From a virus (Duplodnaviria > Heunggongvirae > Uroviricota > Caudoviricetes): 64,000 nt of DNA. Each line of letters starts with the position of its first letter. Position 1 is the first letter of the stretch. Shown here one piece after another: positions 1 to 11,098 of this stretch. Position numbers and translations under genes: made by a program. The stretch spans positions 1 to 64,000 of IMG/VR virus record IMGVR_UViG_2974549561_000001; one strand, given 5' to 3'. The notes under the pieces are model-generated. The model saw only the letters and a program-made list of their open reading frames with translations, did not search any database and was not told where the DNA came from.

Positions 1-244
1 TTGAATAGCTCGCTGGATAACCGGCGGGGGAAGAATTTTTGTTTCGCGCTTTGCTTCAACAAGGATAAAACCATTTCCATGCATAGCGATAACTTCGGAA
101 TTATCACCAAATGGAGATACAAAACCGAACTTGGCCATATCCTGACTACCGCATGGCGTGAAAAGGATCATTTTCTTTTTATCTTCTAAGTCGGTCAGAT
201 CCGCCTCACGAGAAAGTTTATAAATAGTAATGTTTTTCCAGTGC

Positions 245-601
245 TTAAACATGTTGTAACCCTTGAATATCAACCACAGAAAGCTCGTCTTTGTAGAAAA
301 AGGCCAGGTTGTGGCACCCCCTCGTTTGAGCGTATGAGCTGGGACCAATTTCGTTCTTCCAGACAAATGGCTTCAAATCCGTACGGCGAAGCATAAAAAC
401 GCGATTTGTTCCGCTCTGATTCCCAATGAGGCAAAAGCCTTCTTTCACCTTGATCGCCTGCAAGTTGTCGAGTTCACCGCTGGTTACACGGCTATCGAAC
501 TCCTTGCGGCTTATTAGCTCCATCTGCATCTGACGACTCCAAACAAATGCCCATTGAAGGGCGATGGCTGAATGGTACCGAAAACACGACATAAAAAACA
601 A
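245..601 (-). CDS. hypothetical protein (start uncertain)
   Basis: 118-codon minus-strand ORF, no family recognised; 5' end abuts the C1-operator-like site at 601-617. Confidence 0.3.
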   Translation of the reverse strand: MFFMSCFRYHSAIALQWAFVWSRQMQMELISRKEFDSRVTSGELDNLQAIKVKEGFCLIGNQSGTNRVFMLRRTDLKPFVWKNEIGPSSYAQTRGCHNLAFFYKDELSVVDIQGLQHV

Positions 602-617
602 TATTTATTAGAGCAAT
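601..617. promoter_or_regulatory. C1 repressor operator-like site
   Basis: ATATTTATTAGAGCAAT matches 16/17 of the reverse complement of the P1 C1 operator consensus ATTGCTCTAATAAATTT (consensus from memory). Confidence 0.5.
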
Positions 618-698
618 TTTGCAATAAGTAAACGCCACACAGACCACAAATAACCTAAGTTAAAATAACGAAAATCAGAGCAAATCATTGGTGATGAC

Positions 699-983
699 GT
701 GGCAAGTATTGCAACAAAAGACAGCATTTGTTCGGGGCACGGAGGATTCCCATCCAGGCCTCCCGTAGAGAGCGAACCACTACTTAAAGTCAACGGAGTC
801 GAAATGTTAGTTGATGGTAAGCAATATGCACAGCATACCGATGGGAACAGCACGCACGGCGGGCAAGCTATATCAACCAGGGCATGGTTTACCGTCAACG
901 GGAAAGGGATCGTATGCGTTGGTGATCCTGTTTCATGCGGCTCTACCGTTGCAGCCGGAGACGGCCTGGTTCAGGTAAGTTAG
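699..983 (+). CDS. PAAR-like small Cys/Gly-rich protein, GTG start (P1 upfC position)
   Basis: 94 aa with ICSGHGG, VNGVEMLVDGK and VNGKGIVCVGDPVSCG motifs resembling PAAR/DUF4150 spike-tip repeats. Confidence 0.45.
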   Translation: MASIATKDSICSGHGGFPSRPPVESEPLLKVNGVEMLVDGKQYAQHTDGNSTHGGQAISTRAWFTVNGKGIVCVGDPVSCGSTVAAGDGLVQVS

Positions 984-991
984 GAGATATC

Positions 992-1780
992 ATGCTGGAA
1001 AAAGACTACCAGTTATCCGCATATAAAAAATTGGCCGCCGCCGGTGGGATGAAAACACCTGGTGCCATAACATCGGCACGAAACAGTGCTAACACAGCAA
1101 AACTGCTTGCAGAAGAATTGACCGGATTAATTCTGGATACAATTGTCTATCCCGACACTATTACCAGCTATGTTTCAACGATCAGAACAACCGCAACCGG
1201 TTTAACGAATATTGGAGGGCTGGCAACTCAGCACGCGGACCTGTTGGCTGGTTATGCTGATCTGTCAATGCTCCTTCAACTCGATATTGGTTGGGATGTT
1301 TACTGTCGTGCTAATGAGCGAGAAGTTTCAGAACTGCCGATCTCTATTGCCATTGGTGATGTGACTATTACTAAATCGCTTGAGGACGCTGTAAACGCGC
1401 TTAATACATCAAGTTTAGTCGCGGCTATGGGGGAGATTAACCAGACCCTTAACACTGGCTCAGGAAGCTCGTCAGGCTCTGGTTCAGGCGGCGGCACTGC
1501 CACTCCCCCACCAGCACTAACAGAAGAGCAAATTGAATCTCTGAAAGTAGCAACTGAACAGTTTGGGGTTGTTTTCAACCAGACAACAGCACCCACAACT
1601 GCGTTACAACAGCAGTATGAACGAGCGAATGAAAGCGCCAACGTAGCCATAACTGCTTATAACCATGCTATCGGTACCGCGCTTGCGGAAGCATCAGCAA
1701 ATAAGGCCAGCACAGCCAGCGCAATCGCCGCTTTGGTTCCTGATTCTGTTCTTGATGAATTAAACAAAGCGACACAGTAA
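992..1780 (+). CDS. hypothetical protein with Gly/Ser-rich linker (P1 upfB position)
   Basis: ORF 935..1780; internal ATG at 992 preceded by TAGGAGAT; product has a GSGSSSGSGSGGG linker. Confidence 0.5.
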   Translation: MLEKDYQLSAYKKLAAAGGMKTPGAITSARNSANTAKLLAEELTGLILDTIVYPDTITSYVSTIRTTATGLTNIGGLATQHADLLAGYADLSMLLQLDIGWDVYCRANEREVSELPISIAIGDVTITKSLEDAVNALNTSSLVAAMGEINQTLNTGSGSSSGSGSGGGTATPPPALTEEQIESLKVATEQFGVVFNQTTAPTTALQQQYERANESANVAITAYNHAIGTALAEASANKASTASAIAALVPDSVLDELNKATQ

Positions 1781-1819
1781 CAAAGGACTTCATTGATAAT
1801 TTTTCTTCAGGAGGAAGAC

Positions 1820-2242
1820 ATGTCATTCTTTTCTACATTAAAAACAGCTTTGTCTTTGAAGGAGAAACTTGCTGCTACTGGTGTTCTTGTTCTGATTTGC
1901 GCACTTGTTGGTGCTGGGTTTGCGTGGGAACGTCATCAGCTAAAGCAAGCCATGGAGAAAATTGGCAGTCTTGATCAGGCTGTTAAGGAACGTGATAAGT
2001 CAATAATGGATCTTAACCAGACCATTGAGACGATGAACAAAGCAGAGCAACATTTTCACAGCCAGGAAGTGAAAAATGAATCAGAACAAGCCAAGTATGC
2101 TGACAGGCAAATGGAACGAAAAGCTGAAGTTCAGAAACAACTTGTTGCGGCGGGTAATGTTCGCCAGCGTATTCCTGCTGACACTCAGCGGTTGCTCCGG
2201 GAGTCGATCAGCGAATTTAACGCCGACGCCGACAAAGGTTAA
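1820..2242 (+). CDS. ppfA: membrane-anchored coiled-coil protein, i-spanin-like (PpfA-like)
   Basis: ATG at 1820 after AGGAGG; one N-terminal TM helix (ATGVLVLICALVGAGFAW) then a charged helical region; next gene overlaps in another frame. Confidence 0.45.
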   Translation: MSFFSTLKTALSLKEKLAATGVLVLICALVGAGFAWERHQLKQAMEKIGSLDQAVKERDKSIMDLNQTIETMNKAEQHFHSQEVKNESEQAKYADRQMERKAEVQKQLVAAGNVRQRIPADTQRLLRESISEFNADADKG

Positions 2243-2408
2243 CCACCCTGCCCCAAAAAGTGCATTTATGTGCAGGATGCCAGAGTTTAGCAGTGAATAT
2301 TTTGATGATCTGCCAGCGTATATCCTCGATACAGAAACGATGCTGATGGGGATTAACAGGAAGAATCGCAACGTTAATGATTACAACCGCGCTATCAGCG
2401 GTAACTAA
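2142..2408 (+). CDS. mlp: small lipoprotein, o-spanin-like (Mlp-like), probable TTG start
   Basis: lipobox LLTLSG|C with RR n-region if started at TTG 2142; Pro-rich mature part with one Cys; overlaps ppfA 3' end; start codon uncertain (ATG options at 2076 and 2157). Confidence 0.4.
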   Translation: MLRRVMFASVFLLTLSGCSGSRSANLTPTPTKVNHPAPKSAFMCRMPEFSSEYFDDLPAYILDTETMLMGINRKNRNVNDYNRAISGN

Positions 2409-2419
2409 AAGGGATTTTT

Positions 2420-2812
2420 ATGTCTGATAAAGTAACAGTAAAGCAAACTATCAACAAAGCGACTTCAATCTACAAAATTGAGCACATCACTGTTGGCAAG
2501 CCAGGATCTGAACAATACCGTCATGCTTTCGAGCTTGCCGATCAGCTTGGTTTAAAACACCCGGATTGCATCGAGCATGTATTTCCGACCTATGCTGATG
2601 AGCAATGTACTCATGTTCTTACCGAAGAGGATTTTTTCAGCACTGAAGAACGAGAAGGCGTTGATCGCTGCATTGGTGTGATTTGTTCTTCGGTAAGTGA
2701 TGAGTTATTCCCTAATGTGCCTGAATATGGTGGTATTGGATACCAGTTCCTGTATGAAGGCGATGAGCTTAAATGCTATGAACATGGTCTTCTTATCGAA
2801 AGCGTAGAATAA
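2420..2812 (+). CDS. hypothetical protein (P1 upfA position)
   Basis: 130-aa ORF immediately upstream of oriR; no family recognised. Confidence 0.5.
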   Translation: MSDKVTVKQTINKATSIYKIEHITVGKPGSEQYRHAFELADQLGLKHPDCIEHVFPTYADEQCTHVLTEEDFFSTEEREGVDRCIGVICSSVSDELFPNVPEYGGIGYQFLYEGDELKCYEHGLLIESVE

Positions 2813-2863
2813 TACGGCTTCCTTCCAACCGGCTTTATTGGCCGGTTTATTCAACTTATCCAC

Positions 2864-2940
2864 AGCATAGATCCAATAAACAGATCCTAAAGAGAACCTA
2901 GGAAGATCCAAAGAAGATCCCGGATCGCTGTAAGCCGCGC
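2864..2940. other. oriR core: DnaA box and five GATC-containing heptamers
   Basis: TTATCCACA at 2864-2872 then AGATCCA/AGATCCT/AGATCCA/AGATCCC/GGATCGC spaced about 10 bp apart, the architecture of P1 oriR. Confidence 0.6.
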
Positions 2941-2964
2941 CATTTCTGGCCTGAAATGGGATCA

Positions 2965-3072
2965 ACATTGACTATACGCGATTTTATGTTGACTGTGCAC
3001 GATTTATTGTTGACTGCACGCGATTTATTGTTGACTATACGCGACAGAAACATTGACTGTACGCGATTTTAG
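2965..3072. repeat. five direct iterons upstream of repA (incC-equivalent)
   Basis: five copies of about 19 bp with core TTGACTRTRCGCGAYWT at about 21-bp spacing; differ from the P1 iteron sequence as I recall it. Confidence 0.7.
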
Positions 3073-3146
3073 AGCCTGACTATTCACAGTTGTTGATAAC
3101 TGCAATCCAGATGACGCCAGGCCGCGCCACATATGGAGAAACCACG

Positions 3147-4031
3147 ATGCCGGAAGAAAATAAAGGCTTCCTTAGCGTTGAAGAAGTTGCTGGAAATACA
3201 GGAGAAATCCACAGCCTGAAACCCAATAACAATAGCACTATACAACCCATCGCTTTGTTGCGCTTAGGTGTGTTTGTGCCAACCTTAAAATCTACCAATG
3301 TGGCACTACGTCGCGGATCGTCAGTTACTACAAACACAACGAACGCAACCGAAGAACTATCAAGCCTCAAAATTGTTGAGCAGGAAGGCTATGAGGGAAT
3401 TGAAATTCATGGTCCACGCCTGGATATGGATACTGATTTTAAGGTGTGGGTGGGCATAACCTCCGCGTTGTTTGACTACGCACCTGATGATGACGGTATA
3501 ATCACCCTGCCATTCTCCGAGTTTGCCGATCGATGCGGCTATCCACGTAAGCGCCTTTCAAAGGCGTTCCGTAAAAGTATTGATGATTCTCTGACACGCA
3601 TTCAGCAGACAGTTGTCAAATTCCGCTTCCCGGCGGCAAAAGGTCATCTCAATAACATTAACGTCAACTTGTTGGCATATAGCAGCCTGAATACCGAGCT
3701 TGATGTTATCGAGATCCAGCCGCAGAAACAGCTATCTGAACTTTACTATGTTGACTATAAGCGAATCCTGAAGCTGAAGATGCTGGATAAACTAGGGCGC
3801 AAAGAGACGGCCAAGGTACTGTATACATTCTTTGAGGCTCTACCCGCCAACCCGGCACCTGTCAGCATTGAGCGCCTTAGAGCGAGGCTTAATCTCAAAT
3901 CATCCGTTAGCGTGCAAAATAGCGTTATCAGAAAAGCCATGAAAGATTTGGAAGCTATTGAATATCTTAAATTTTCAGAGATAAAAAACGGCAGGAAAAT
4001 CGGCTTCCAGATCCATAAGCGCAATCCATAA
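3147..4031 (+). CDS. repA: RepA plasmid replication initiator (P1 RepA family, divergent)
   Basis: flanked by iteron arrays; GPRLDMDTDFKVW block resembles P1 RepA; ATG 3147 after GGAGAAACC chosen over the longer 3090 ORF. Confidence 0.8.
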   Translation: MPEENKGFLSVEEVAGNTGEIHSLKPNNNSTIQPIALLRLGVFVPTLKSTNVALRRGSSVTTNTTNATEELSSLKIVEQEGYEGIEIHGPRLDMDTDFKVWVGITSALFDYAPDDDGIITLPFSEFADRCGYPRKRLSKAFRKSIDDSLTRIQQTVVKFRFPAAKGHLNNINVNLLAYSSLNTELDVIEIQPQKQLSELYYVDYKRILKLKMLDKLGRKETAKVLYTFFEALPANPAPVSIERLRARLNLKSSVSVQNSVIRKAMKDLEAIEYLKFSEIKNGRKIGFQIHKRNP

Positions 4032-4033
4032 TA

Positions 4034-4291
4034 TTGACTATATGCGATAGCGAGAAGTTGACTATAGGCGACATTCGTTGACGCTGGTGGATTTTTGCTG
4101 GCGTCAATATTCTGCAAGTCGCTATTGAGATGGCTTTTAGGGGCATTTCATCGCGTATAGTCAACGTTTCTCCCGACAATATCTTACATAGTCGATCTTT
4201 GGTGGAGTTAAATCGACTACAGTCAACTTTTGACTGTAGTCACATCGCGCATAGTCAACTATTCACATTAACCTTCGCGCATAGTCAACAT
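4034..4291. repeat. iteron array downstream of repA (incA-equivalent)
   Basis: about eight copies of the same TTGACTATA(C/G)GCGA core in both orientations. Confidence 0.65.
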
Positions 4292-4323
4292 TTGCGCGGT
4301 TCTCATCAAGCAGTGGTATTGAT

Positions 4324-5007
4324 ATGCAAGAAGAGAAACAACACTACCTCTACGTTCTGGTGCCAGAGAACGGAGATACTTTTAAAATCGGCATTTCATG
4401 TGGTCCATTGGCACGGTTTAAAGGGCTACAAGTGAGTCCCGATTTTGCGCTTTCACGGGTCTATCGTGGTACGCGTTTGGCAATGGTTAATCTTGAGCGG
4501 GCTTTACACGCAACCTTTTTCCCCTGGAATGCGCCGTGGGAGAAAAGCGTCGGTGGCGGGCATACTGAATGGTTTACACGAGAGTGTCTTGATAAGGTTT
4601 TGGCTCATATCGAATATCTAAATGATATGTGGGGAGGGATTCTCGAGCGCATTAAGTCGAATGATTTACTTCAGCGTCCAGTAGATGCTGCTTGCTCTTT
4701 CGAAAAAGAGCTGGATGTTACTTCTATCGTGACTTTCAAAGATGACGCAGGAATGAGGGACGTGGCTTATGTCTCCATATCTGGCTATGAACCGGACGCG
4801 ATCCGCGCTCAATGTGAATTGCTGAAAGCAATGTTTATGCTTCGGACTAAATATCCCTGGGATACAGGGCGGGTGTGCTTCCCTATGGAAGAGTTAACCG
4901 CCACCATTGATTCCCAGCTTTACCACGATAATCCAGAGAAGTTTTTTAGCCTTTTAGCCGGTAATGGGCTTAACTGTGTGTCCGGGCTGGGGCGAAGTAG
5001 AATCTAA
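4324..5007 (+). CDS. T5orf172/GIY-YIG-like domain protein
   Basis: N-terminal YLYVLV...FKIGIS and HTEWF motifs typical of the T5orf172 domain; sits between incA and parA where I recall no gene in P1. Confidence 0.5.
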   Translation: MQEEKQHYLYVLVPENGDTFKIGISCGPLARFKGLQVSPDFALSRVYRGTRLAMVNLERALHATFFPWNAPWEKSVGGGHTEWFTRECLDKVLAHIEYLNDMWGGILERIKSNDLLQRPVDAACSFEKELDVTSIVTFKDDAGMRDVAYVSISGYEPDAIRAQCELLKAMFMLRTKYPWDTGRVCFPMEELTATIDSQLYHDNPEKFFSLLAGNGLNCVSGLGRSRI

Positions 5008-5140
5008 CATGCCTCGCTCTTCGGTCCCTTCTTTTACGATCGACACGGGTACTTTGAGGCTGAACTTCCGGCGCTTACGCGTGCTATAGATACTATCGAT
5101 TTCGAACGATTATTCGCTGCTCTTAGCAAATAACACTGAT

Positions 5141-5161
5141 GCCCCTGAACGGGGCTTTTTT
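5141..5161 (+). terminator. rho-independent terminator
   Basis: GCCCC-tgaac-GGGGC hairpin followed by TTTTTT. Confidence 0.6.
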
Positions 5162-5250
5162 GTGCCCTCCTTGTAACTCTCAATCGTGCAAAATGAACCA
5201 AACATGCAGAGAATGCTATGTACAAGCATCTACGCATACATTATTATTTT

Positions 5251-5286
5251 ATGCAGCATTTTTAATTAAATTCAAAAATACAGCAT
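5251..5286. promoter_or_regulatory. imperfect inverted repeat upstream of parA (candidate par promoter/operator)
   Basis: ATGCAGCATTTTT ... AAAAATACAGCAT arms in an AT-rich region 16 bp before parA. Confidence 0.3.
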
Positions 5287-5301
5287 AAAGGATGACTTTC
5301 G

Positions 5302-6498
5302 ATGAGTGATTCCAGCCAGCTTCACAAGGTTGCTCAAAGAGCAAATAGAATGCTCAATGTTCTGACTGAACAAGTACAGTTGCAAAAGGATGAGCTACAC
5401 GCGAACGAGTTTTACCAGGTCTATGCGAAAGCGGCACTGGCAAAATTGCCTCTACTGACTCGTGCGAACGTTGACTATGCCGTAAGTGAAATGGAAGAAA
5501 AGGGTTATGTTTTCGATAAACGCCCTGCTGGCTCTTCAATGAAATATGCGATGTCAATTCAGAACATCATTGACATATATGAACATCGCGGAGTGCCAAA
5601 ATACCGGGATCGCTACAGCGAAGCGTATGTGATTTTCATCTCTAATCTTAAAGGCGGTGTGTCAAAAACTGTATCGACGGTTTCTCTGGCGCATGCAATG
5701 CGTGCTCACCCTCATCTTCTGATGGAAGATTTAAGGATTCTGGTTATTGACCTTGATCCGCAATCTTCAGCAACGATGTTTTTAAGCCATAAACACTCTA
5801 TTGGTATCGTAAACGCAACATCTGCACAGGCTATGTTGCAGAATGTAAGCCGTGAAGAGCTGTTAGAGGAGTTTATTGTTCCTTCTGTTGTACCTGGGGT
5901 TGACGTTATGCCTGCGTCGATTGACGATGCCTTTATTGCATCCGATTGGAGAGAGCTGTGCAATGAGCATCTACCGGGTCAGAACATCCATGCAGTCCTG
6001 AAAGAAAATGTGATTGATAAGCTGAAGAGCGATTATGACTTTATCCTCGTTGATAGTGGTCCTCACCTTGACGCCTTCCTGAAAAATGCTTTGGCCTCGG
6101 CCAATATACTGTTTACACCTCTGCCGCCTGCAACGGTTGATTTCCACTCATCGCTTAAATACGTTGCCCGCCTTCCTGAGTTGGTGAAACTCATTTCGGA
6201 TGAAGGCTGCGAGTGTCAGCTTGCAACTAACATTGGTTTTATGTCCAAGTTGAGTAACAAGGCAGACCATAAGTATTGCCATAGCCTGGCTAAAGAAGTG
6301 TTCGGTGGGGATATGCTTGATGTTGTCCTCCCTCGCCTTGACGGTTTTGAACGCTGCGGCGAGTCTTTTGACACTGTTATTTCAGCTAACCCGGCAACGT
6401 ATGTTGGTAGTGCTGATGCATTGAAGAACGCGCGAATTGCTGCGGAAGATTTTGCTAAAGCAGTTTTTGACCGTATTGAATTTATCAGATCTAACTGA
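5302..6498 (+). CDS. parA: ParA partition ATPase (P1 ParA)
   Basis: 398 aa; N-terminus MSDSSQLHKVAQRANRMLNVLTEQ and deviant Walker A KGGVSKT match P1 ParA as I remember it. Confidence 0.95.
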   Translation: MSDSSQLHKVAQRANRMLNVLTEQVQLQKDELHANEFYQVYAKAALAKLPLLTRANVDYAVSEMEEKGYVFDKRPAGSSMKYAMSIQNIIDIYEHRGVPKYRDRYSEAYVIFISNLKGGVSKTVSTVSLAHAMRAHPHLLMEDLRILVIDLDPQSSATMFLSHKHSIGIVNATSAQAMLQNVSREELLEEFIVPSVVPGVDVMPASIDDAFIASDWRELCNEHLPGQNIHAVLKENVIDKLKSDYDFILVDSGPHLDAFLKNALASANILFTPLPPATVDFHSSLKYVARLPELVKLISDEGCECQLATNIGFMSKLSNKADHKYCHSLAKEVFGGDMLDVVLPRLDGFERCGESFDTVISANPATYVGSADALKNARIAAEDFAKAVFDRIEFIRSN

Positions 6499-6514
6499 GG
6501 AGTAAGAAACCCCC

Positions 6515-7516
6515 ATGTCAAAGAAAAACAGACCAACAATTGGGCGAACCCTTAATCCTTCAATATTAAGCGGATTTGATAGTTCTTCAGCCTCTGGCGA
6601 TCGAGTCGAGCAGGTATTCAAGTTATCAACTGGTCGCCAGGCCACATTTATTGAAGAGGTAATACCTCCGAACCAGGTAGAAAGCGATACCTTTGTTGAT
6701 CAGCATAACAACGGGCGTGACCAGGCATCTCTTACGCCAAAATCATTAAAAAGTATCCGAAGCACTATTAAGCATCAGCAATTTTACCCTGCAATAGGTG
6801 TTAGACGGGCTACAGGGAAAATTGAAATTTTGGATGGTTCCCGGCGTCGAGCTTCTGCCATCTTAGAGAACGTAGGGTTGCGGGTTTTAGTCACGGACCA
6901 GGAGATCAGCGTTCAGGAAGCGCAAAATTTAGCGAAAGACGTTCAGACAGCATTGCAGCACAGCATTCGAGAAATAGGTCTGCGTTTGATGCGAATGAAA
7001 AATGATGGGATGAGTCAGAAGGATATTGCAGCCAAAGAAGGGCTGTCTCAGGCGAAGGTCACGCGTGCTCTCCAGGCAGCGAGTGCTCCGGAAGAATTAG
7101 TCGCCCTTTTCCCTGTGCAGTCGGAATTAACCTTTTCGGACTACAAAACGCTTTGTGCTGTTGGCGACGAAATGGGGAACAAGAATTTAGAGTTTGATCA
7201 GCTTATTCAAAACATATCCCCGGAAATAAACGACATCTTATCCATTGAAGAAATGGCCGAAGATGAAGTTAAAAATAAAATCCTGCGCTTGATAACAAAG
7301 GAAGCCTCACTACTCACGGATAAAGATTCTAAAGATAAGTCCGTAGTTACTGAATTATGGAAATTTGAGGACAAGGATCGCTTTGCAAGGAAGCGCGTGA
7401 AAGGCCGTGCATTTTCTTATGAGTTTAATCGACTTTCAAAAGAGCTACAGGAAGAACTCGACAGGATGATTGGGCATATCCTTAGAAAGAGCCTCGATAA
7501 AAAGCCGAAGCCTTAA
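6515..7516 (+). CDS. parB: ParB partition protein (P1 ParB)
   Basis: 333 aa immediately after parA; sequence and position match P1 ParB. Confidence 0.95.
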   Translation: MSKKNRPTIGRTLNPSILSGFDSSSASGDRVEQVFKLSTGRQATFIEEVIPPNQVESDTFVDQHNNGRDQASLTPKSLKSIRSTIKHQQFYPAIGVRRATGKIEILDGSRRRASAILENVGLRVLVTDQEISVQEAQNLAKDVQTALQHSIREIGLRLMRMKNDGMSQKDIAAKEGLSQAKVTRALQAASAPEELVALFPVQSELTFSDYKTLCAVGDEMGNKNLEFDQLIQNISPEINDILSIEEMAEDEVKNKILRLITKEASLLTDKDSKDKSVVTELWKFEDKDRFARKRVKGRAFSYEFNRLSKELQEELDRMIGHILRKSLDKKPKP

Positions 7517-7517
7517 A

Positions 7518-7605
7518 CTTTCGCCATTCAAATTTCACTATTAACCTACTGTTTTTAAAGTAAATCCCTCTAAAATTTCAAGGTGAAATCGCCACGATTC
7601 CACCT
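7518..7605. other. parS partition site
   Basis: ATTTCAC heptamer and TCGCCA hexamer boxes flanking an AT-rich IHF-like core, directly after parB. Confidence 0.75.
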
Positions 7606-7663
7606 TGGATTTTACCTTCCTCCCCTACTCCCGAAAAAAATAAAAAAATTGCTTGTCACGAGA

Positions 7664-7690
7664 AAGTCAACAAGTGACTTTCAATAAAAT
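7664..7690 (+). promoter_or_regulatory. candidate late promoter
   Basis: AAGTCAACAAGTGACTTTCAATAAAAT; the ACAAGTGAYTT motif recurs upstream of lyz, R and prt. Confidence 0.35.
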
Positions 7691-7741
7691 CTCTTCCGAA
7701 AAGGGATTCACACAAGTGCCTTGTGTTTAAGGAAGAGTAAA

Positions 7742-9448
7742 TTGAGTAACTTACGCGAATACCAGAATCGTATTGCAGATATCGCAAAACGCTCTAAAGC
7801 TGTGCTTGGCTGGGCAAGCACTGCGCAGTTCGGTACTGATAACCAATTCATTAAAGATGATGCCGCGCGTGCCGCATCTATCCTTGAAGCTGCACGTAAA
7901 GACCCGGTTTTTGCGGGTATCTCTGATAATGCCACCGCTCAAATCGCTACAGCGTGGGCAAGTGCACTGGCTGACTACGCCGCAGCACATAAATCTATGC
8001 CGCGTCCGGAAATTCTGGCCTCCTGCCACCAGACGCTGGAAAACTGCCTGATTGAGTCCACCCGCAATAGCATGGATGCCACTAATAAAGCGATGCTGGA
8101 ATCCGTCGCAGCAGAGATGATGAGCGTTTCTGACGGTGTTATGCGTCTGCCTTTATTCCTCGCGATGATCCTGCCTGTTCAGTTGGGGGCAGCTACCGCT
8201 GATGCGTGTACCTTCATTCCGGTTACGCGTGACCAGTCCGACATCTATGAAGTCTTTAACGTGGCAGGTTCCTCTTTTGGTTCTTATGCTGCTGGTGATG
8301 TTCTGGACATGCAATCCGTCGGTGTGTACAGCCAGTTACGTCGCCGCTATGTGCTGGTGGCAAGCTCCGATGGCACCAGCAAAACCGCAACCTTCAAGAT
8401 GGAAGACTTCGAAGGCCAGAATGTACCAATCCGAAAAGGTCGCACTAACATCTACGTTAACCGTATTAAGTCTGTTGTTGATAACGGTTCCGGCAGCCTA
8501 CTTCACTCGTTTACTAATGCTGCTGGTGAGCAAATCACTGTTACCTGCTCTCTGAACTACAACATTGGTCAGATTGCCCTGTCGTTCTCCAAAGCGCCGG
8601 ATAAAGGCACTGAGATCGCAATTGAGACGGAAATCAATATTGAAGCCGCTCCTGAGCTGATCCCGCTGATCAACCACGAAATGAAGAAATACACCCTGTT
8701 CCCAAGTCAGTTCGTTATCGCGGCTGAGCACACGGTACAGGCGGCGTATGAAGCACAGCGTGAATTTGGTCTGGACCTGGGGTCCCTACAGTTCCGCACC
8801 CTGAAGGAATACCTGTCTCATGAACAGGATATGCTGCGTCTTCGCATCATGATCTGGCGCACTCTTGCGACCGACACCTTTGACATCGCTCTGCCGGTTA
8901 ACCAGTCCTTTGATGTATGGGCAACCATCATTCGTGGCAAATTCCAGACTGTATATCGCGACATTATTGAGCGCGTTAAATCTTCTGGTGCGATGGGGAT
9001 GTTTGCTGGTGCTGATGCAGCATCTTTCTTCAAACAGTTGCCGAAGGATTTCTTCCAGCCAGCCGAAGACTATATCCAGACTCCGTATGTTCACTACATC
9101 GGTACCCTGTTCGGTAACGTGAAAGTGTACGAAGTACCTGCTGGTATTTGTAAGAACTTAACGACAGAGAACATTCAGTTCAGCTCGATGGATGTGCTGT
9201 GCTACGTCCGTGATGAAAATCCGGGTAAAGCAGGCTTCGTGACTGGTGATGCTGTCCCGGCCATCCCGTTCCAGCATCCGACCACTCCGGCGCTGGTCAA
9301 TCGTACCACGCTGTGGGGTTCGGCTATCAATGATATGCACCCACGCAACGGCGCTGATTACTTCACTCGTGTAACGCTGACAATGGCCAAAAAAGGCGGG
9401 CTTAACTTCATTAGCGGCGACACGATTGATGCCGGTGACTCTGAGTAA
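7742..9448 (+). CDS. major head protein precursor (gp23-like), probable TTG start
   Basis: about 570 aa, first gene after parS as in P1; AAGGAAG SD six nt before TTG 7742; function assigned by synteny and size only. Confidence 0.5.
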   Translation: MSNLREYQNRIADIAKRSKAVLGWASTAQFGTDNQFIKDDAARAASILEAARKDPVFAGISDNATAQIATAWASALADYAAAHKSMPRPEILASCHQTLENCLIESTRNSMDATNKAMLESVAAEMMSVSDGVMRLPLFLAMILPVQLGAATADACTFIPVTRDQSDIYEVFNVAGSSFGSYAAGDVLDMQSVGVYSQLRRRYVLVASSDGTSKTATFKMEDFEGQNVPIRKGRTNIYVNRIKSVVDNGSGSLLHSFTNAAGEQITVTCSLNYNIGQIALSFSKAPDKGTEIAIETEINIEAAPELIPLINHEMKKYTLFPSQFVIAAEHTVQAAYEAQREFGLDLGSLQFRTLKEYLSHEQDMLRLRIMIWRTLATDTFDIALPVNQSFDVWATIIRGKFQTVYRDIIERVKSSGAMGMFAGADAASFFKQLPKDFFQPAEDYIQTPYVHYIGTLFGNVKVYEVPAGICKNLTTENIQFSSMDVLCYVRDENPGKAGFVTGDAVPAIPFQHPTTPALVNRTTLWGSAINDMHPRNGADYFTRVTLTMAKKGGLNFISGDTIDAGDSE

Positions 9449-9508
9449 TCAGGGGAAGTTCTCCGTTTAACATAGCGCCCCCGTGCGGGGCGCATAACAG
9501 GGAAAGTT

Positions 9509-11098
9509 ATGTCTCAATATTCAATTCAACAGTCATTAGGTAATGCATCCGGCGTCGCGGTTAGCCCGATCAATGCCGATGCGACGTTATCTACCGGTGT
9601 TGCATTAAATAGCAGCTTGTGGGCTGGTATTGGCGTATTTGCGCGTGGCAAGCCGTTTACTGTTCTTGCGGTTACTGAGTCCAATTACGAAGATGTTCTC
9701 GGCGAACCGCTGAAGCCGTCTTCCGGCTCACAGTTCGAACCAATTCGCCATGTATACGAAGCTATTCAGCAAACATCTGGTTATGTTGTTCGCGCTGTTC
9801 CGGATGATGCGAAGTTCCCGATTATTATGTTCGATGAATCAGGCGAACCGGCTTACAGTGCGTTGCCATACGGTTCTGAAATTGAACTTGATAGTGGCGA
9901 AGCCTTTGCTATCTACGTTGATGATGGTGATCCGTGTATTTCACCTACCCGTGAGTTAACCATCGAAACAGCAACAGCGGACAGCGCGGGTAATGAACGC
10001 TTCCTCTTAAAACTGACCCAGACGACTTCGCTCGGCGTGGTAACGACCCTGGAGACACACACTGTGTCTTTGGCGGAAGAAGCGAAAGATGACATGGGCC
10101 GCTTGTGTTATCTGCCTACGGCTCTGGAAGCCCGTTCTAAATATCTGCGCGCGGTTGTTAATGAAGAGCTGATTTCGACAGCGAAAGTAACAAACAAAAA
10201 ATCGTTGGCGTTCACTGGCGGTACCAACGGCGATCAGTCGAAAATCTCAACCGCTGCGTACCTGCGTGCGGTGAAAGTGCTGAACAATGCGCCGTACATG
10301 TACACCGCTGTTCTCGGCCTGGGGTGCTATGACAATGCGGCGATCACTGCGTTAGGTAATATCTGTTCTGATCGCCTGATTGATGGCTTCTTTGATGTCA
10401 AACCGACATTGACGTACACGGAAGCGATCTCTGCTGTTGAAGATACCGGTTTACTTGGTACCGATTATGTAAGCTGTTCTGTCTATCACTACCCGTTCTC
10501 CTGCAAAGACAAATGGACCCAATCCCGTGTGGTCTTCGGTCTGTCTGGCGCGGCGTATGCGGCGAAAGCTCGTGGCGTCAAGAAAAACTCTGATGTCGGC
10601 GGTTGGCATTACTCACCGGCTGGTGAAGAACGTGCCGTCATTGCTCGTGCGTCAATTCAACCGCTGTATCCGGAAGATACCCCGGACGAAGAAGCAATGG
10701 TCAAGGGCCGTCTCAATAAAGTATCTGTTGGCACCTCTGGCCAGATGATCATCGACGATGCTTTAACTTGCTGCACGCAGGATAACTATCTGCACTTCCA
10801 GCACGTCCCATCCCTGATGAATGCAATCAGTCGTTTCTTTGTCCAGTTAGCCCGACAGATGAAGCATAGCCCGGACGGTATTACTGCGGCTGGCCTGACT
10901 AAAGGGATGACCAAACTTTTAGATCGCTTTGTCGCCTCCGGCGCTCTGGTGGCTCCTCGTGATCCTGATGCTGACGGTACAGAACCGTATGTGCTGAAAG
11001 TTACGCAGGCGGAATTCGATAAATGGGAAGTAGTCTGGGCCTGCTGCCCGACTGGCGTAGCCCGTCGTATCCAGGGCGTACCGCTGCTTATTAAGTAA
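9509..11098 (+). CDS. contractile tail sheath protein (gp22-like)
   Basis: 529 aa, strong SD, follows head gene; size and position fit P1 sheath. Confidence 0.5.
   Translation: MSQYSIQQSLGNASGVAVSPINADATLSTGVALNSSLWAGIGVFARGKPFTVLAVTESNYEDVLGEPLKPSSGSQFEPIRHVYEAIQQTSGYVVRAVPDDAKFPIIMFDESGEPAYSALPYGSEIELDSGEAFAIYVDDGDPCISPTRELTIETATADSAGNERFLLKLTQTTSLGVVTTLETHTVSLAEEAKDDMGRLCYLPTALEARSKYLRAVVNEELISTAKVTNKKSLAFTGGTNGDQSKISTAAYLRAVKVLNNAPYMYTAVLGLGCYDNAAITALGNICSDRLIDGFFDVKPTLTYTEAISAVEDTGLLGTDYVSCSVYHYPFSCKDKWTQSRVVFGLSGAAYAAKARGVKKNSDVGGWHYSPAGEERAVIARASIQPLYPEDTPDEEAMVKGRLNKVSVGTSGQMIIDDALTCCTQDNYLHFQHVPSLMNAISRFFVQLARQMKHSPDGITAAGLTKGMTKLLDRFVASGALVAPRDPDADGTEPYVLKVTQAEFDKWEVVWACCPTGVARRIQGVPLLIK

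What the first reader, a model, noticed from the sequence alone, without database searches (positions are those of the whole stretch)
4324..5007. T5orf172/GIY-YIG-like gene wedged between incA iterons and parA
P1 has, to my recollection, no gene between incA and the par promoter. Here a 227-aa protein with T5orf172 hallmarks (YLYVLV, KIGIS, HTEWF) sits there with its own terminator at 5141-5161. Proteins with this domain appear as nucleases, homing-endonuclease relatives or defence components, so this is a moron in the maintenance region.
Basis: partly seen in the sequence, partly recalled or inferred. Interest (0 to 1): 0.5.

Follow-up and report, generated by a model that had tools for sequence, protein, structure and literature searches.

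The report
Truncated nuclease gene in P1-like replicon cassette
The flagged gene is a real T5orf172/GIY-YIG nuclease gene, cut short here by a stop mutation, that belongs to an alternative plasmid-replication cassette of P1-like phage-plasmids; it is dispensable and fast-evolving, so it is probably a selfish or conflict nuclease rather than a replication factor.

Summary
The ORF at 4324-5007 exists and has a T5orf172 domain above Pfam's threshold. Its predicted fold matches Slx1-type GIY-YIG nucleases, and the catalytic residues are conserved. Three corrections apply.

1. It is a truncated allele. A CAA>TAA change at 5005-5007 cuts a 269-codon gene that otherwise runs to 5133, eight bases before the terminator.
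2. It is not inserted into P1's incA-par spacer. The whole stretch 2951-5199 is a different replicon cassette, the "p0111" type: iterons, a Rep_3 repA, control iterons, the nuclease gene, a terminator. It replaces P1's IncY iterons/repA/incA.
3. Homologues sit in the same slot in three other cassette types of P1-like elements, one of them P1-like (IncY-like). Canonical P1 is therefore the version without the gene.

The gene is non-essential. About one copy in six is null, and its pN/pS is 0.28 against 0.002-0.025 for repA and parAB. Its C-terminal region has no sequence family, is acidic, and is modelled as a winged helix weakly resembling Rep WH1 domains.

The best reading is a homing-endonuclease-like conflict nuclease linked to the cassette. 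The mechanism is inferred, not shown. The gene is already annotated in about 400 plasmids, so interest is moderate.

The parts
2951..5199 (.). Replicon cassette that differs from canonical P1 (p0111 type replacing the IncY type)
   Evidence: blastn against P1 gives window 1-2950 = P1 locus 1552-4506 (96.6%) and 5200-9000 = 5998-9798 (99.3%). Only a 59-nt weak match lies in between. The JL22 paper describes the same replacement (PMC9603915).
2966..3066 (+). Five origin-side iterons (TTGACTATACGCGA core, 21-22 bp spacing)
   Evidence: the repeat finder family D1. Pattern search finds 10 copies against 0.26 expected by chance.
3147..4031 (+). repA, a Rep_3/RepB-family initiator of the p0111 type (294 aa)
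   Evidence: Pfam Rep3_C E = 5e-6, Rep3_N E = 3e-4. RefSeq WP_001113742.1, 'RepB family plasmid replication initiator'. 41% identical to P1 RepA and about 44-49% to RepFIB-type initiators.
4032..4293 (.). Downstream control iterons in the incA-equivalent position: 2 forward (4032-4071) and 4 inverted (4151-4293)
   Evidence: the repeat finder D1/D5 and inverted pairs; pattern search. The last iteron ends 30 nt before the ATG.
4324..5007 (+). The flagged ORF: truncated allele (227 aa, Q228*) of the T5orf172 nuclease gene
   Evidence: The exact protein is P0154, 'MULTISPECIES: GIY-YIG nuclease family protein', seen on 167 contigs.
4345..4578 (+). T5orf172 / GIY-YIG nuclease domain (residues 8-85; fold extends to about residue 102)
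5005..5007 (+). Premature stop codon TAA (CAA = Gln228 in the other alleles examined)
   Evidence: Alignment with RCS47 and 673R5. Six other alleles have Q at 228. Ten PLSDB plasmids and phage JL22 share the T.
5008..5133 (+). In-frame 42-codon remainder of the ancestral 269-codon gene, now untranslated
   Evidence: Same frame, identical to intact alleles, ends at TAA 5131-5133. Carries I258-D259, invariant among the four homologues.
5141..5161 (+). Intrinsic terminator closing the cassette, upstream of Ppar
   Evidence: Terminator scan; fold -11.9 kcal/mol, z = -2.6. Lies inside the replaced segment.
5219..5247 (+). Ppar promoter (P1-homologous; outside the cassette)
   Evidence: Promoter scan. 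Corresponds to annotated P1 Ppar at locus 6017-6045.
5302..6498 (+). parA (99.7% identical to P1 ParA)
   Evidence: Pfam HTH_54 and AAA_31; identity matrix.

Best explanation
What it is (shown). The ORF is the first 227 codons of a 269-codon gene, cut short by a CAA>TAA mutation.
- The full protein has an N-terminal T5orf172/GIY-YIG nuclease domain with the catalytic Tyr/Arg/Glu set intact.
- Its roughly 170-residue C-terminal region is acidic, has no sequence family, and is modelled as a winged-helix-like domain.
- The gene is the last gene of the p0111-type plasmid-replicon cassette: origin iterons, repA, control iterons, nuclease gene, terminator. In this P1-like phage-plasmid that cassette replaces P1's IncY iterons/repA/incA, between the shared DnaA-box/GATC half of oriR and Ppar.
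- Homologous genes fill the same slot in three other cassette lineages of P1-like elements. Canonical P1 lacks one.
- The gene is not needed for plasmid maintenance. Null alleles are common and its constraint is more than ten times weaker than on repA and parAB.
- Its C-terminal region is the fastest-evolving part.
- Its tree disagrees with the RepA tree.

How it most likely works (inferred). It behaves like a free-standing homing-endonuclease-type gene. I infer expression from the plasmid prophage, probably by read-through from the RepA-controlled repA promoter, because no terminator separates the two genes. The nuclease would cut DNA of related competitors that lack it or carry another cassette, such as superinfecting or co-resident P1-like elements. 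That would favour retention or spread of its own cassette and place the gene at the edge of recombination tracts. The copy in this window has lost a conserved part of the C-terminal domain and is probably crippled.
For: Domain and fold:
- Pfam PF10544 above threshold.
- AF2 model mean pLDDT 77; the N-terminal domain blocks are above 90 apart from residues 71-80.
- BFVD hits to T5orf172, CapR-homology and Hef-like homing endonuclease proteins.
- Invariant Y10, K21, G23, R31, E58, E82 in 63 homologues.

Truncation.

Cassette replacement; literature PMC9603915.

The same unit swapped in a second backbone: L006 and L007 flanks are 94-99% identical, and the cassette including the nuclease gene is replaced, with the right boundary 63-84 nt after the gene.

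Same slot in four lineages.

Extreme restriction of the family:
- Only four full-length types among 5.8 and 1.8 billion proteins.
- All sit between repA and parA of P1-like elements.
- None of 79 other plasmids with a P1-type ParA has it.

Dispensability and relaxed constraint:
- Of 43 unselected IMG/VR loci, 35 are intact, 6 have premature stops, 1 has a 1.76-kb insertion and 1 is cut off.
- The 227-aa allele is on 167 contigs and a fragment lacking the N-terminal domain is on 139 contigs.
- pN/pS is 0.28 with 20 protein variants, against 0.023 for repA, 0.002 for parA and 0.025 for parB with 2-4 variants each.

Incongruence: the nuclease domains of L007 and L009 are 61.5% identical although their RepAs are 41% identical. 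For the window and L006 the figures are 63% and 83%.

Precedents: T5orf172 genes are homing endonucleases that sit at boundaries of genetic exchange between phages (PMC10448857). Some were domesticated against rival replicons, as with Odn (PMC8263062).
Against: - No cleavage site, target or activity is known. Everything about the mechanism is analogy.
- The C-terminal region is acidic in all four homologues (pI about 5.0). That is unusual for a sequence-specific DNA-binding domain and unlike typical homing endonucleases.
- Synonymous diversity of the cassette (repA pS 0.046, nuclease gene 0.025) is not lower than that of the flanks (parB 0.018). There is therefore no sign of a recent drive-like sweep.
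- Occupying one conserved slot across old cassette lineages also fits vertical inheritance of an accessory gene.
- pN/pS of 0.28 shows some purifying selection, so a host- or plasmid-level benefit such as defence is equally possible.
- No promoter was identified.
- The tree incongruence rests on one pair.
Confidence: 0.45

Rival explanations
1. Odn-like origin-directed nuclease. The C-terminal winged-helix domain derives from, or mimics, an iteron-binding Rep WH domain. It would guide the T5orf172 nuclease to the iterons or origin of rival replicons such as IncY. That would destroy incompatible or competing plasmids and select for cassette swapping.
For: - Foldseek PDB top hits for the region outside the nuclease domain are almost all iteron initiators: RctB domains 2-3, RepE54, MSBI1.176 WH1 and pPS10 RepA WH1 (E 0.02-0.3, probability 0.5-0.77).
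- The gene is physically linked to iterons and repA and travels with them.
- Experimental precedent exists: Odn is T5orf172 plus RepA_N and cuts PLE iterons. Such origin-directed nucleases evolved repeatedly (PMC8263062; PMC10448857).
Against: - No sequence similarity to any of five RepA types (BLASTP E > 1; hhalign probability 0.2). Pfam and PDB sequence searches of the C-terminal region found nothing.
- The structural scores are modest, and other winged-helix proteins score alike (Cdt1, TcpK, JetB, ORC/Cdc6).
- The model is only moderately confident there (pLDDT 50-86). An independent model of the homologue P0009 failed in this region (pLDDT below 50).
- The domain is acidic.
Confidence: 0.15
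2. Single-gene anti-phage or anti-plasmid defence nuclease carried as cargo by the plasmid prophage. The C-terminal domain would act as a sensor or regulatory module rather than a DNA-targeting one.
For: - Fast evolution with residual purifying selection (pN/pS 0.28).
- An acidic, family-less C-terminal domain.
- More distant relatives of the N-terminal domain lie in a chromosomal island next to Mrr_cat and WYL genes, and on a mobilizable plasmid.
- The position after repA, with no terminator in between, fits expression in the lysogenic state; this is inferred, since no promoter was identified.
Against: - No PADLOC family matches, and NCBIfam has none.
- The fixed slot inside the replicon cassette and confinement to P1-like elements are unlike typical defence cargo, which moves between hotspots and hosts.
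- About one copy in six is null.
Confidence: 0.15
3. Replication or copy-control accessory. The WH1-like domain would bind the cognate RepA or the adjacent control iterons, and the protein would modulate handcuffing or initiation. The nuclease domain would be used for nicking, or be vestigial.
For: - The gene lies immediately downstream of the control iterons in all four lineages, about 25-35 nt from the last iteron.
- It is probably co-transcribed with repA.
- It shows WH1-like structural matches; WH1 is also the Rep dimerisation domain.
Against: - Canonical P1 and all IncY plasmids replicate without it.
- Null alleles are frequent and widespread, including in the p0111 reference plasmid pO111_2.
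- The window and L006 share the same iterons and 83%-identical RepA, yet their C-terminal regions are only 33% identical.
- The catalytic residues are strictly conserved, which argues against a vestigial nuclease.
Confidence: 0.1
4. One reading: a recent, independent moron insertion into the incA-parA spacer of an otherwise P1-type replicon.
For: Canonical P1 has only about 190 bp and no gene there. The gene has a terminator of its own.
Against: - The iterons and repA upstream are not P1's.
- The gene is exchanged together with repA and the iterons.
- Homologues at 25-44% identity occupy the same slot in other cassette types.
- GC content (0.47) is similar to the neighbouring genes.
Confidence: 0.03

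Closest known systems
Free-standing T5orf172 (GIY-YIG superfamily) homing endonuclease genes of phages (ICP1, T5-like and others; Barth, Dunham & Seed 2023, PMC10448857)
   Same: - N-terminal T5orf172 nuclease domain with conserved catalytic residues.
- A free-standing gene between conserved essential genes.
- Presence/absence polymorphism between close relatives.
- Sits at the edge of a recombination tract.
- Frequent inactivated alleles.
- A rapidly diverging non-nuclease part.
   Different: [quoted passage not shown] It is an acidic, family-less, winged-helix-like region.
- The gene lies in a plasmid-replicon cassette of a temperate phage-plasmid, not in a lytic phage genome.
- Homing has not been shown.
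Odn (ICP1 gp88), the origin-directed nuclease (Barth et al. 2021, PMC8263062)
   Same: - T5orf172 nuclease fused to a second domain related, here only structurally and weakly, to a replication-initiator DNA-binding domain.
- Modular replicons (initiator plus iterons) swapped as units in the affected elements.
   Different: - Odn's RepA_N domain has clear sequence similarity to its target's initiator. Here none is detectable.
- Domain order differs: in Odn the catalytic Glu is residue 180, whereas here the nuclease is N-terminal.
- Odn is carried by the attacker, a phage. This gene rides inside a replicon cassette itself.
Slx1 / HIGLE structure-specific GIY-YIG endonucleases
   Different: Only 11-17% identity. 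Slx1 has a C-terminal RING/PHD domain and needs Slx4. There is no evidence that this protein recognises branched DNA.
Canonical P1 plasmid maintenance region (oriR-incC-repA-incA-parA-parB-parS)
   Same: - Same gene order and the same flanks.
- The DnaA-box/GATC half of oriR, Ppar, parA (99.7% identical) and parB (99.7% identical) are P1's.
- Iterons lie on both sides of repA.
   Different: - Different iteron sequence.
- RepA is only 41% identical, closer to RepFIB-type initiators (44-49%).
- 2 + 4 downstream iterons instead of 9.
- An extra 810-bp nuclease gene plus a terminator.

Membership tests
T5orf172 domain family (Pfam PF10544; GIY-YIG clan) | Profile match above the curated gathering score | tested here: met
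   27.3 bits against a cut-off of 20, E = 5.2e-6, residues 8-85, profile positions 2-87 of 101. Public annotation as a GIY-YIG nuclease family protein.
T5orf172 domain family (Pfam PF10544; GIY-YIG clan) | GIY-YIG alpha/beta fold | tested here: met
T5orf172 domain family (Pfam PF10544; GIY-YIG clan) | Catalytic residues (Tyr of the first motif, Arg on helix 1, metal-binding Glu of 'EWF') | tested here: met
   Y10, K21, G23, R31, E58 and E82 are invariant, and H62, G79, T81 and F84 are at least 90% conserved, in a 63-sequence alignment. All lie within the retained 227 residues.
T5orf172 domain family (Pfam PF10544; GIY-YIG clan) | Endonuclease activity | not testable with these tools
   Needs purified protein and DNA substrates.
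Homing endonuclease gene (free-standing) | Presence/absence polymorphism at a conserved locus between close relatives | tested here: met
   P1 and the window have 96.6% and 99.3% identical flanks; the gene is absent from P1 and present here. However, the whole cassette differs, not the gene alone.
Homing endonuclease gene (free-standing) | Separate sequence-specific DNA-binding domain | tested here: inconclusive
Homing endonuclease gene (free-standing) | Cleaves the gene-less allele and is copied into it by repair | not testable with these tools
   Indirect only. The gene lies 63-84 nt inside the right boundary of two independent cassette exchanges, and its tree disagrees with the RepA tree. 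There is no sweep signature in synonymous diversity.
Origin-directed nuclease (Odn-like chimera) | DNA-binding domain homologous in sequence to a replication initiator | tested here: not met
   BLASTP of four C-terminal regions against five RepA types gives E > 1. hhalign probability is 0.2.
Origin-directed nuclease (Odn-like chimera) | Structural resemblance of the second domain to initiator winged-helix domains | tested here: inconclusive
Origin-directed nuclease (Odn-like chimera) | Iteron-dependent cleavage of a replication origin | not testable with these tools
   Requires nuclease assays on IncY and p0111 origins.
Known anti-phage defence systems (PADLOC-DB v2) | Match to a defence-system protein model | tested here: not met
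   No PADLOC family at E <= 1.
P1 IncY replicon (incC-repA-incA) | P1-type 19-bp iterons and P1 RepA | tested here: not met
   No P1 iterons at up to 3 mismatches in 64 kb. RepA is 40.8% identical to P1 RepA. The literature types this replicon as p0111 (PMC9603915).

The most novel reading that the evidence does not exclude
The nuclease is a cassette-linked weapon or gene drive of P1-family phage-plasmids. Guided by a Rep-like winged-helix domain, or by binding RepA itself, it would cut the origin or iterons of rival replicon cassettes in co-resident or superinfecting relatives. That would eliminate them or convert them by recombination in the conserved flanks. This would explain the IncY/p0111 dimorphism and repeated cassette swapping in P1-like plasmids, and would be a plasmid-borne counterpart of ICP1's Odn.
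Probability: 0.15. Interest if true: 0.7.

Novelty: new variant of a known kind. Interest (0 to 1): 0.4.

Why it matters
P1-like phage-plasmids are common carriers of ESBL and mcr genes in E. coli and Salmonella. They fall into two replicon types, IncY and p0111, whose origin is unexplained.

This work shows that the p0111 cassette, and three rarer cassettes, carry a conserved-position nuclease gene that the textbook phage P1 lacks. That turns an "unknown gp57" into a testable candidate for inter-element competition, incompatibility escape or cassette exchange.

It also warns that the copy in this window, and in at least 167 other contigs, is a truncated allele. Annotation as an intact "GIY-YIG nuclease" is therefore misleading. 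If the gene turns out to be only a decaying selfish endonuclease, the finding is ordinary.

Tried and rejected
- Sequence homology of the C-terminal region to RepA, ParA or ParB: BLASTP and hhalign gave nothing. Pfam and PDB sequence searches gave nothing.
- PADLOC and NCBIfam: no family. PHROGs returned only a function-unknown family built from these same proteins, plus an N-terminal endonuclease match.
- Remnant of the gene in canonical P1: tblastn with three homologues at E <= 10 found nothing in the incA-Ppar spacer.
- Second structure model, of homologue P0009, to confirm the winged-helix fold independently: the C-terminal pLDDT was below 50, so it was unusable.
- AFDB50 fold search: the library was not available.
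- Is a nuclease gene upstream of parA a general feature of plasmids with a P1-type ParA? In 80 GTDB loci, only the one Escherichia P1-like element has it. The long Pantoea rep-parA gap has no convincing ORF.
- Other allelic types in PLSDB: the P0009 and P0011 types are absent. Only the p0111-type gene is hit, through the N-terminal domain.
- Own promoter: the consensus scan found none upstream of the ATG.
- Rfam: no RNA family in 2800-5400.
- pSvP1 (MN510446), reported as having '2 orfs inserted between repA and parA', could not be fetched.

Full report
**1. The observation**

The ORF listing gives an ATG ORF at 4324-5007 (+), 227 aa. Its translation contains YLYVLV, KIGIS and HTEWF. Pfam T5orf172 (PF10544) matches residues 8-85 at 27.3 bits against a gathering score of 20 (E = 5.2e-6). 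MUG113 and Tox-URI2, relatives from the same clan, match only below threshold.

Upstream lies a Rep_3-type initiator gene. Downstream lie a ParA with the P1-type HTH_54 domain and a ParB. A GC-rich hairpin followed by U6 sits at 5141-5161 and folds at -11.9 kcal/mol, z = -2.6.

**2. This copy is truncated**

In phage RCS47 the homologous CDS is 810 nt, or 269 aa. A three-way DNA alignment shows that the window has TAA where RCS47 and 673R5 have CAA (window 5005-5007). Beyond that codon the frame is intact and identical, ending at TAA 5131-5133, eight bases before the terminator.

Six further alleles have Gln at 228. The 227-aa product is a catalogued protein seen on 167 contigs. Ten PLSDB plasmids and phage JL22 are 100% identical to the window across the 810 nt. 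The lost 42 residues include I258-D259, invariant among all four homologues, and several modelled strands and helices.

**3. It is not an insertion into P1's incA-par spacer**

Canonical P1 records match only window 5203-5320 of a 4000-5320 query. blastn of window 1-9000 against the P1 locus gives:
- window 1-2950 = P1 locus 1552-4506 (96.6% identity);
- window 5200-9000 = P1 locus 5998-9798 (99.3% identity);
- nothing but a 59-nt weak match in between.

By the P1 annotation, the left break lies inside oriR, after the DnaA box and GATC sites and before the first incC iteron. The right break lies 19 nt upstream of the Ppar -35 hexamer.

The replaced 2.25 kb holds:
- five iterons with core TTGACTATACGCGA (2966-3066);
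- repA (3147-4031);
- two forward and four inverted iterons (4032-4293);
- the nuclease gene and the terminator.

No P1-type iteron occurs anywhere in the window. RepA here is 40.8% identical to P1 RepA and about 44-49% identical to RepFIB-family initiators.

The literature calls this replicon type p0111. [quoted passage not shown] Venturini et al. list "2 orfs inserted between repA and parA" in pSvP1 (PMC6906374).

**4. Distribution**

The gene occurs in 401 PLSDB plasmids and 10 phage records, always at more than 93% protein identity. In every record examined it lies between repA and parA of a P1-like element, including large cointegrates.

Searches of 5.8 billion and 1.8 billion proteins found only three other full-length types:
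- P0004, 44% identical;
- P0009, from Salmonella enterica;
- P0011, from a faecal metagenome.

The other roughly 150 hits share only the N-terminal domain. All three full-length relatives lie in the same slot, after the downstream iterons and before parA, in P1-like contigs.

Their RepAs define three types:
- L006 is the window type (83% identical, same iterons);
- L007/L008 is the P1 type (83% identical to P1 RepA, with P1-type iterons GATGTGTGCTGGAGGGA);
- L009 is a third type (41-48% identical).

L006 and L007 have 94-99% identical backbones but swapped cassettes (L007 6656-8944, L006 6831-9019). The nuclease gene is included, and the right boundary lies 63-84 nt after its stop. This repeats the relation between the window and P1.

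P1 has no remnant of the gene. IncY plasmids in PLSDB have no homologue of any type. Among 80 GTDB loci with a P1-type ParA (Pantoea, Erwinia, Kosakonia, Yersinia and others), only one Escherichia P1-like element has the gene.

**5. The protein**

The AF2 model (63-sequence alignment, mean pLDDT 77) has a confident N-terminal domain. Its pLDDT is above 90 apart from residues 71-80. The C-terminal region is moderately confident, with pLDDT 71-86 over residues 151-210 and lower elsewhere.

For the N-terminal domain:
- BFVD gives T5orf172, CapR-homology and Hef-like homing-endonuclease proteins.
- Y10, K21, G23, R31, E58 and E82 are invariant in 63 homologues, so a nuclease active site is retained.

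For the rest of the protein:
- Foldseek's best PDB hits are iteron initiators: RctB domains 2-3, RepE54, MSBI1.176 WH1 and pPS10 RepA WH1 (E 0.02-0.3).
- No sequence-level link to RepA exists.
- A second model, of P0009, failed in this region.
- The region is acidic in all four homologues, with pI about 5.0.

I therefore call it winged-helix-like, possibly Rep-WH1-like, with its DNA-binding role unproven.

**6. Evolutionary behaviour**

In an unselected IMG/VR sample of 43 loci:
- 35 genes are intact;
- five have a stop at codon 112;
- one has a stop at codon 68;
- one has a 1.76-kb insertion;
- one is cut by a contig end.

A fragment lacking the N-terminal domain is on 139 contigs. The p0111 reference plasmid pO111_2 carries only a 134-aa fragment.

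Over 37 loci, pN/pS values are:

| Gene | pN/pS | Distinct proteins |
|---|---|---|
| nuclease gene | 0.28 | 20 |
| repA | 0.023 | 4 |
| parA | 0.002 | 2 |
| parB | 0.025 | 4 |

A smaller set chosen for divergence gave the same picture.

Between the window and L006:

| Protein or region | Identity |
|---|---|
| RepA | 83% |
| ParA | 89% |
| nuclease N-terminal domain | 63% |
| nuclease C-terminal region | 33% |

. Conversely, the nuclease domains of L007 and L009 are 61.5% identical while their RepAs are 41% identical. The gene's history is thus not simply that of its cassette. Synonymous diversity in the cassette is not lower than in the flanks, so there is no sign of a recent sweep.

**7. 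Mechanism**

Shown: the domain content, the cassette membership, the conserved slot, dispensability and fast evolution.

Inferred: the gene behaves like the free-standing T5orf172 homing-endonuclease genes described in phages. Those sit next to essential genes and at boundaries of exchanged segments (PMC10448857). I infer that it acts on DNA of competing relatives.

The more specific Odn-like reading is attractive but only weakly supported. In Odn a T5orf172 nuclease is guided by an initiator-derived domain to a rival's iterons, which selects for replicon-module swapping (PMC8263062). Defence and replication-accessory roles remain rivals. The replication role is the least likely, given the null alleles and the 33% identity of the C-terminal region between cassettes that share the same iterons.

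No promoter was found. With no terminator between repA and the gene, and a strong one after it, co-transcription with repA is the simplest assumption. It is untested.

**8. Verdict**

The gene is already annotated in hundreds of records and noted in passing in the literature. New here are its status as a conserved-slot component of several P1-family replicon cassettes, its two-domain model and its decay pattern. It is a new variant of a known kind, of moderate interest.

Noticed in passing
window 3751-3764: An iteron-like copy (TTGACTATAAGCGA, 1 mismatch) lies inside the repA coding sequence. The same motif is present in the 83%-identical repA of L006. It may be a conserved intragenic RepA-binding site.
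   Followed up: partly
window 2950 / P1 locus L001 4506: The left boundary of the cassette exchange falls inside oriR. The DnaA-box/GATC half of the origin is shared with P1, while the iteron half is replaced. Two initiator types therefore use the same origin-opening region.
   Followed up: partly
window 4130-4435; P0004 residues 1-41: The 101-aa ORF over the downstream iterons, and the called N-terminal extension of P0004, are artefacts of reading through iterons (repeated 'AYSQH' peptides).
   Followed up: yes
public records OR339795.1, NC_005856.1, NC_042128.1: Likely mis-annotations. Phage phi456 labels the T5orf172 gene 'terminase small subunit'. The RefSeq records for P1 and RCS47 label RepA 'replication helicase'.
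   Followed up: no
L056 4295-6057 (IMG/VR UViG_2645727563_000002): A 1.76-kb insertion replaces window-equivalent 4618-4846 inside the nuclease gene. It is probably an insertion sequence; its content was not examined.
   Followed up: no
L003 (phage vB_EcoM-673R5), columns 222 and 259 of alignment A1: Two single-base deletions split the gene into two annotated CDSs. These could be real frameshifts or homopolymer sequencing errors.
   Followed up: no
L007 8065-8295 vs L009 5157-5387: The nuclease-domain DNA of these two elements is 76% identical, while their repA genes have no nucleotide match and their parA genes are 65% identical. This hints at lateral exchange of the nuclease gene or domain between cassettes.
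   Followed up: partly
L060-L139: P1-type ParA (56-81% identical) is widespread on Pantoea, Erwinia, Kosakonia, Buttiauxella, Vibrionaceae and Yersinia plasmids. In many Pantoea megaplasmids a Rep_3 gene lies 1.4-2.8 kb upstream, and in the one gap examined (L073) there was no convincing ORF.
   Followed up: partly
L015/L016: A distant relative of the N-terminal domain (P0012, 212 aa) lies in a phage contig beside two HNH_3 endonuclease genes. That setting is typical of homing endonucleases.
   Followed up: no
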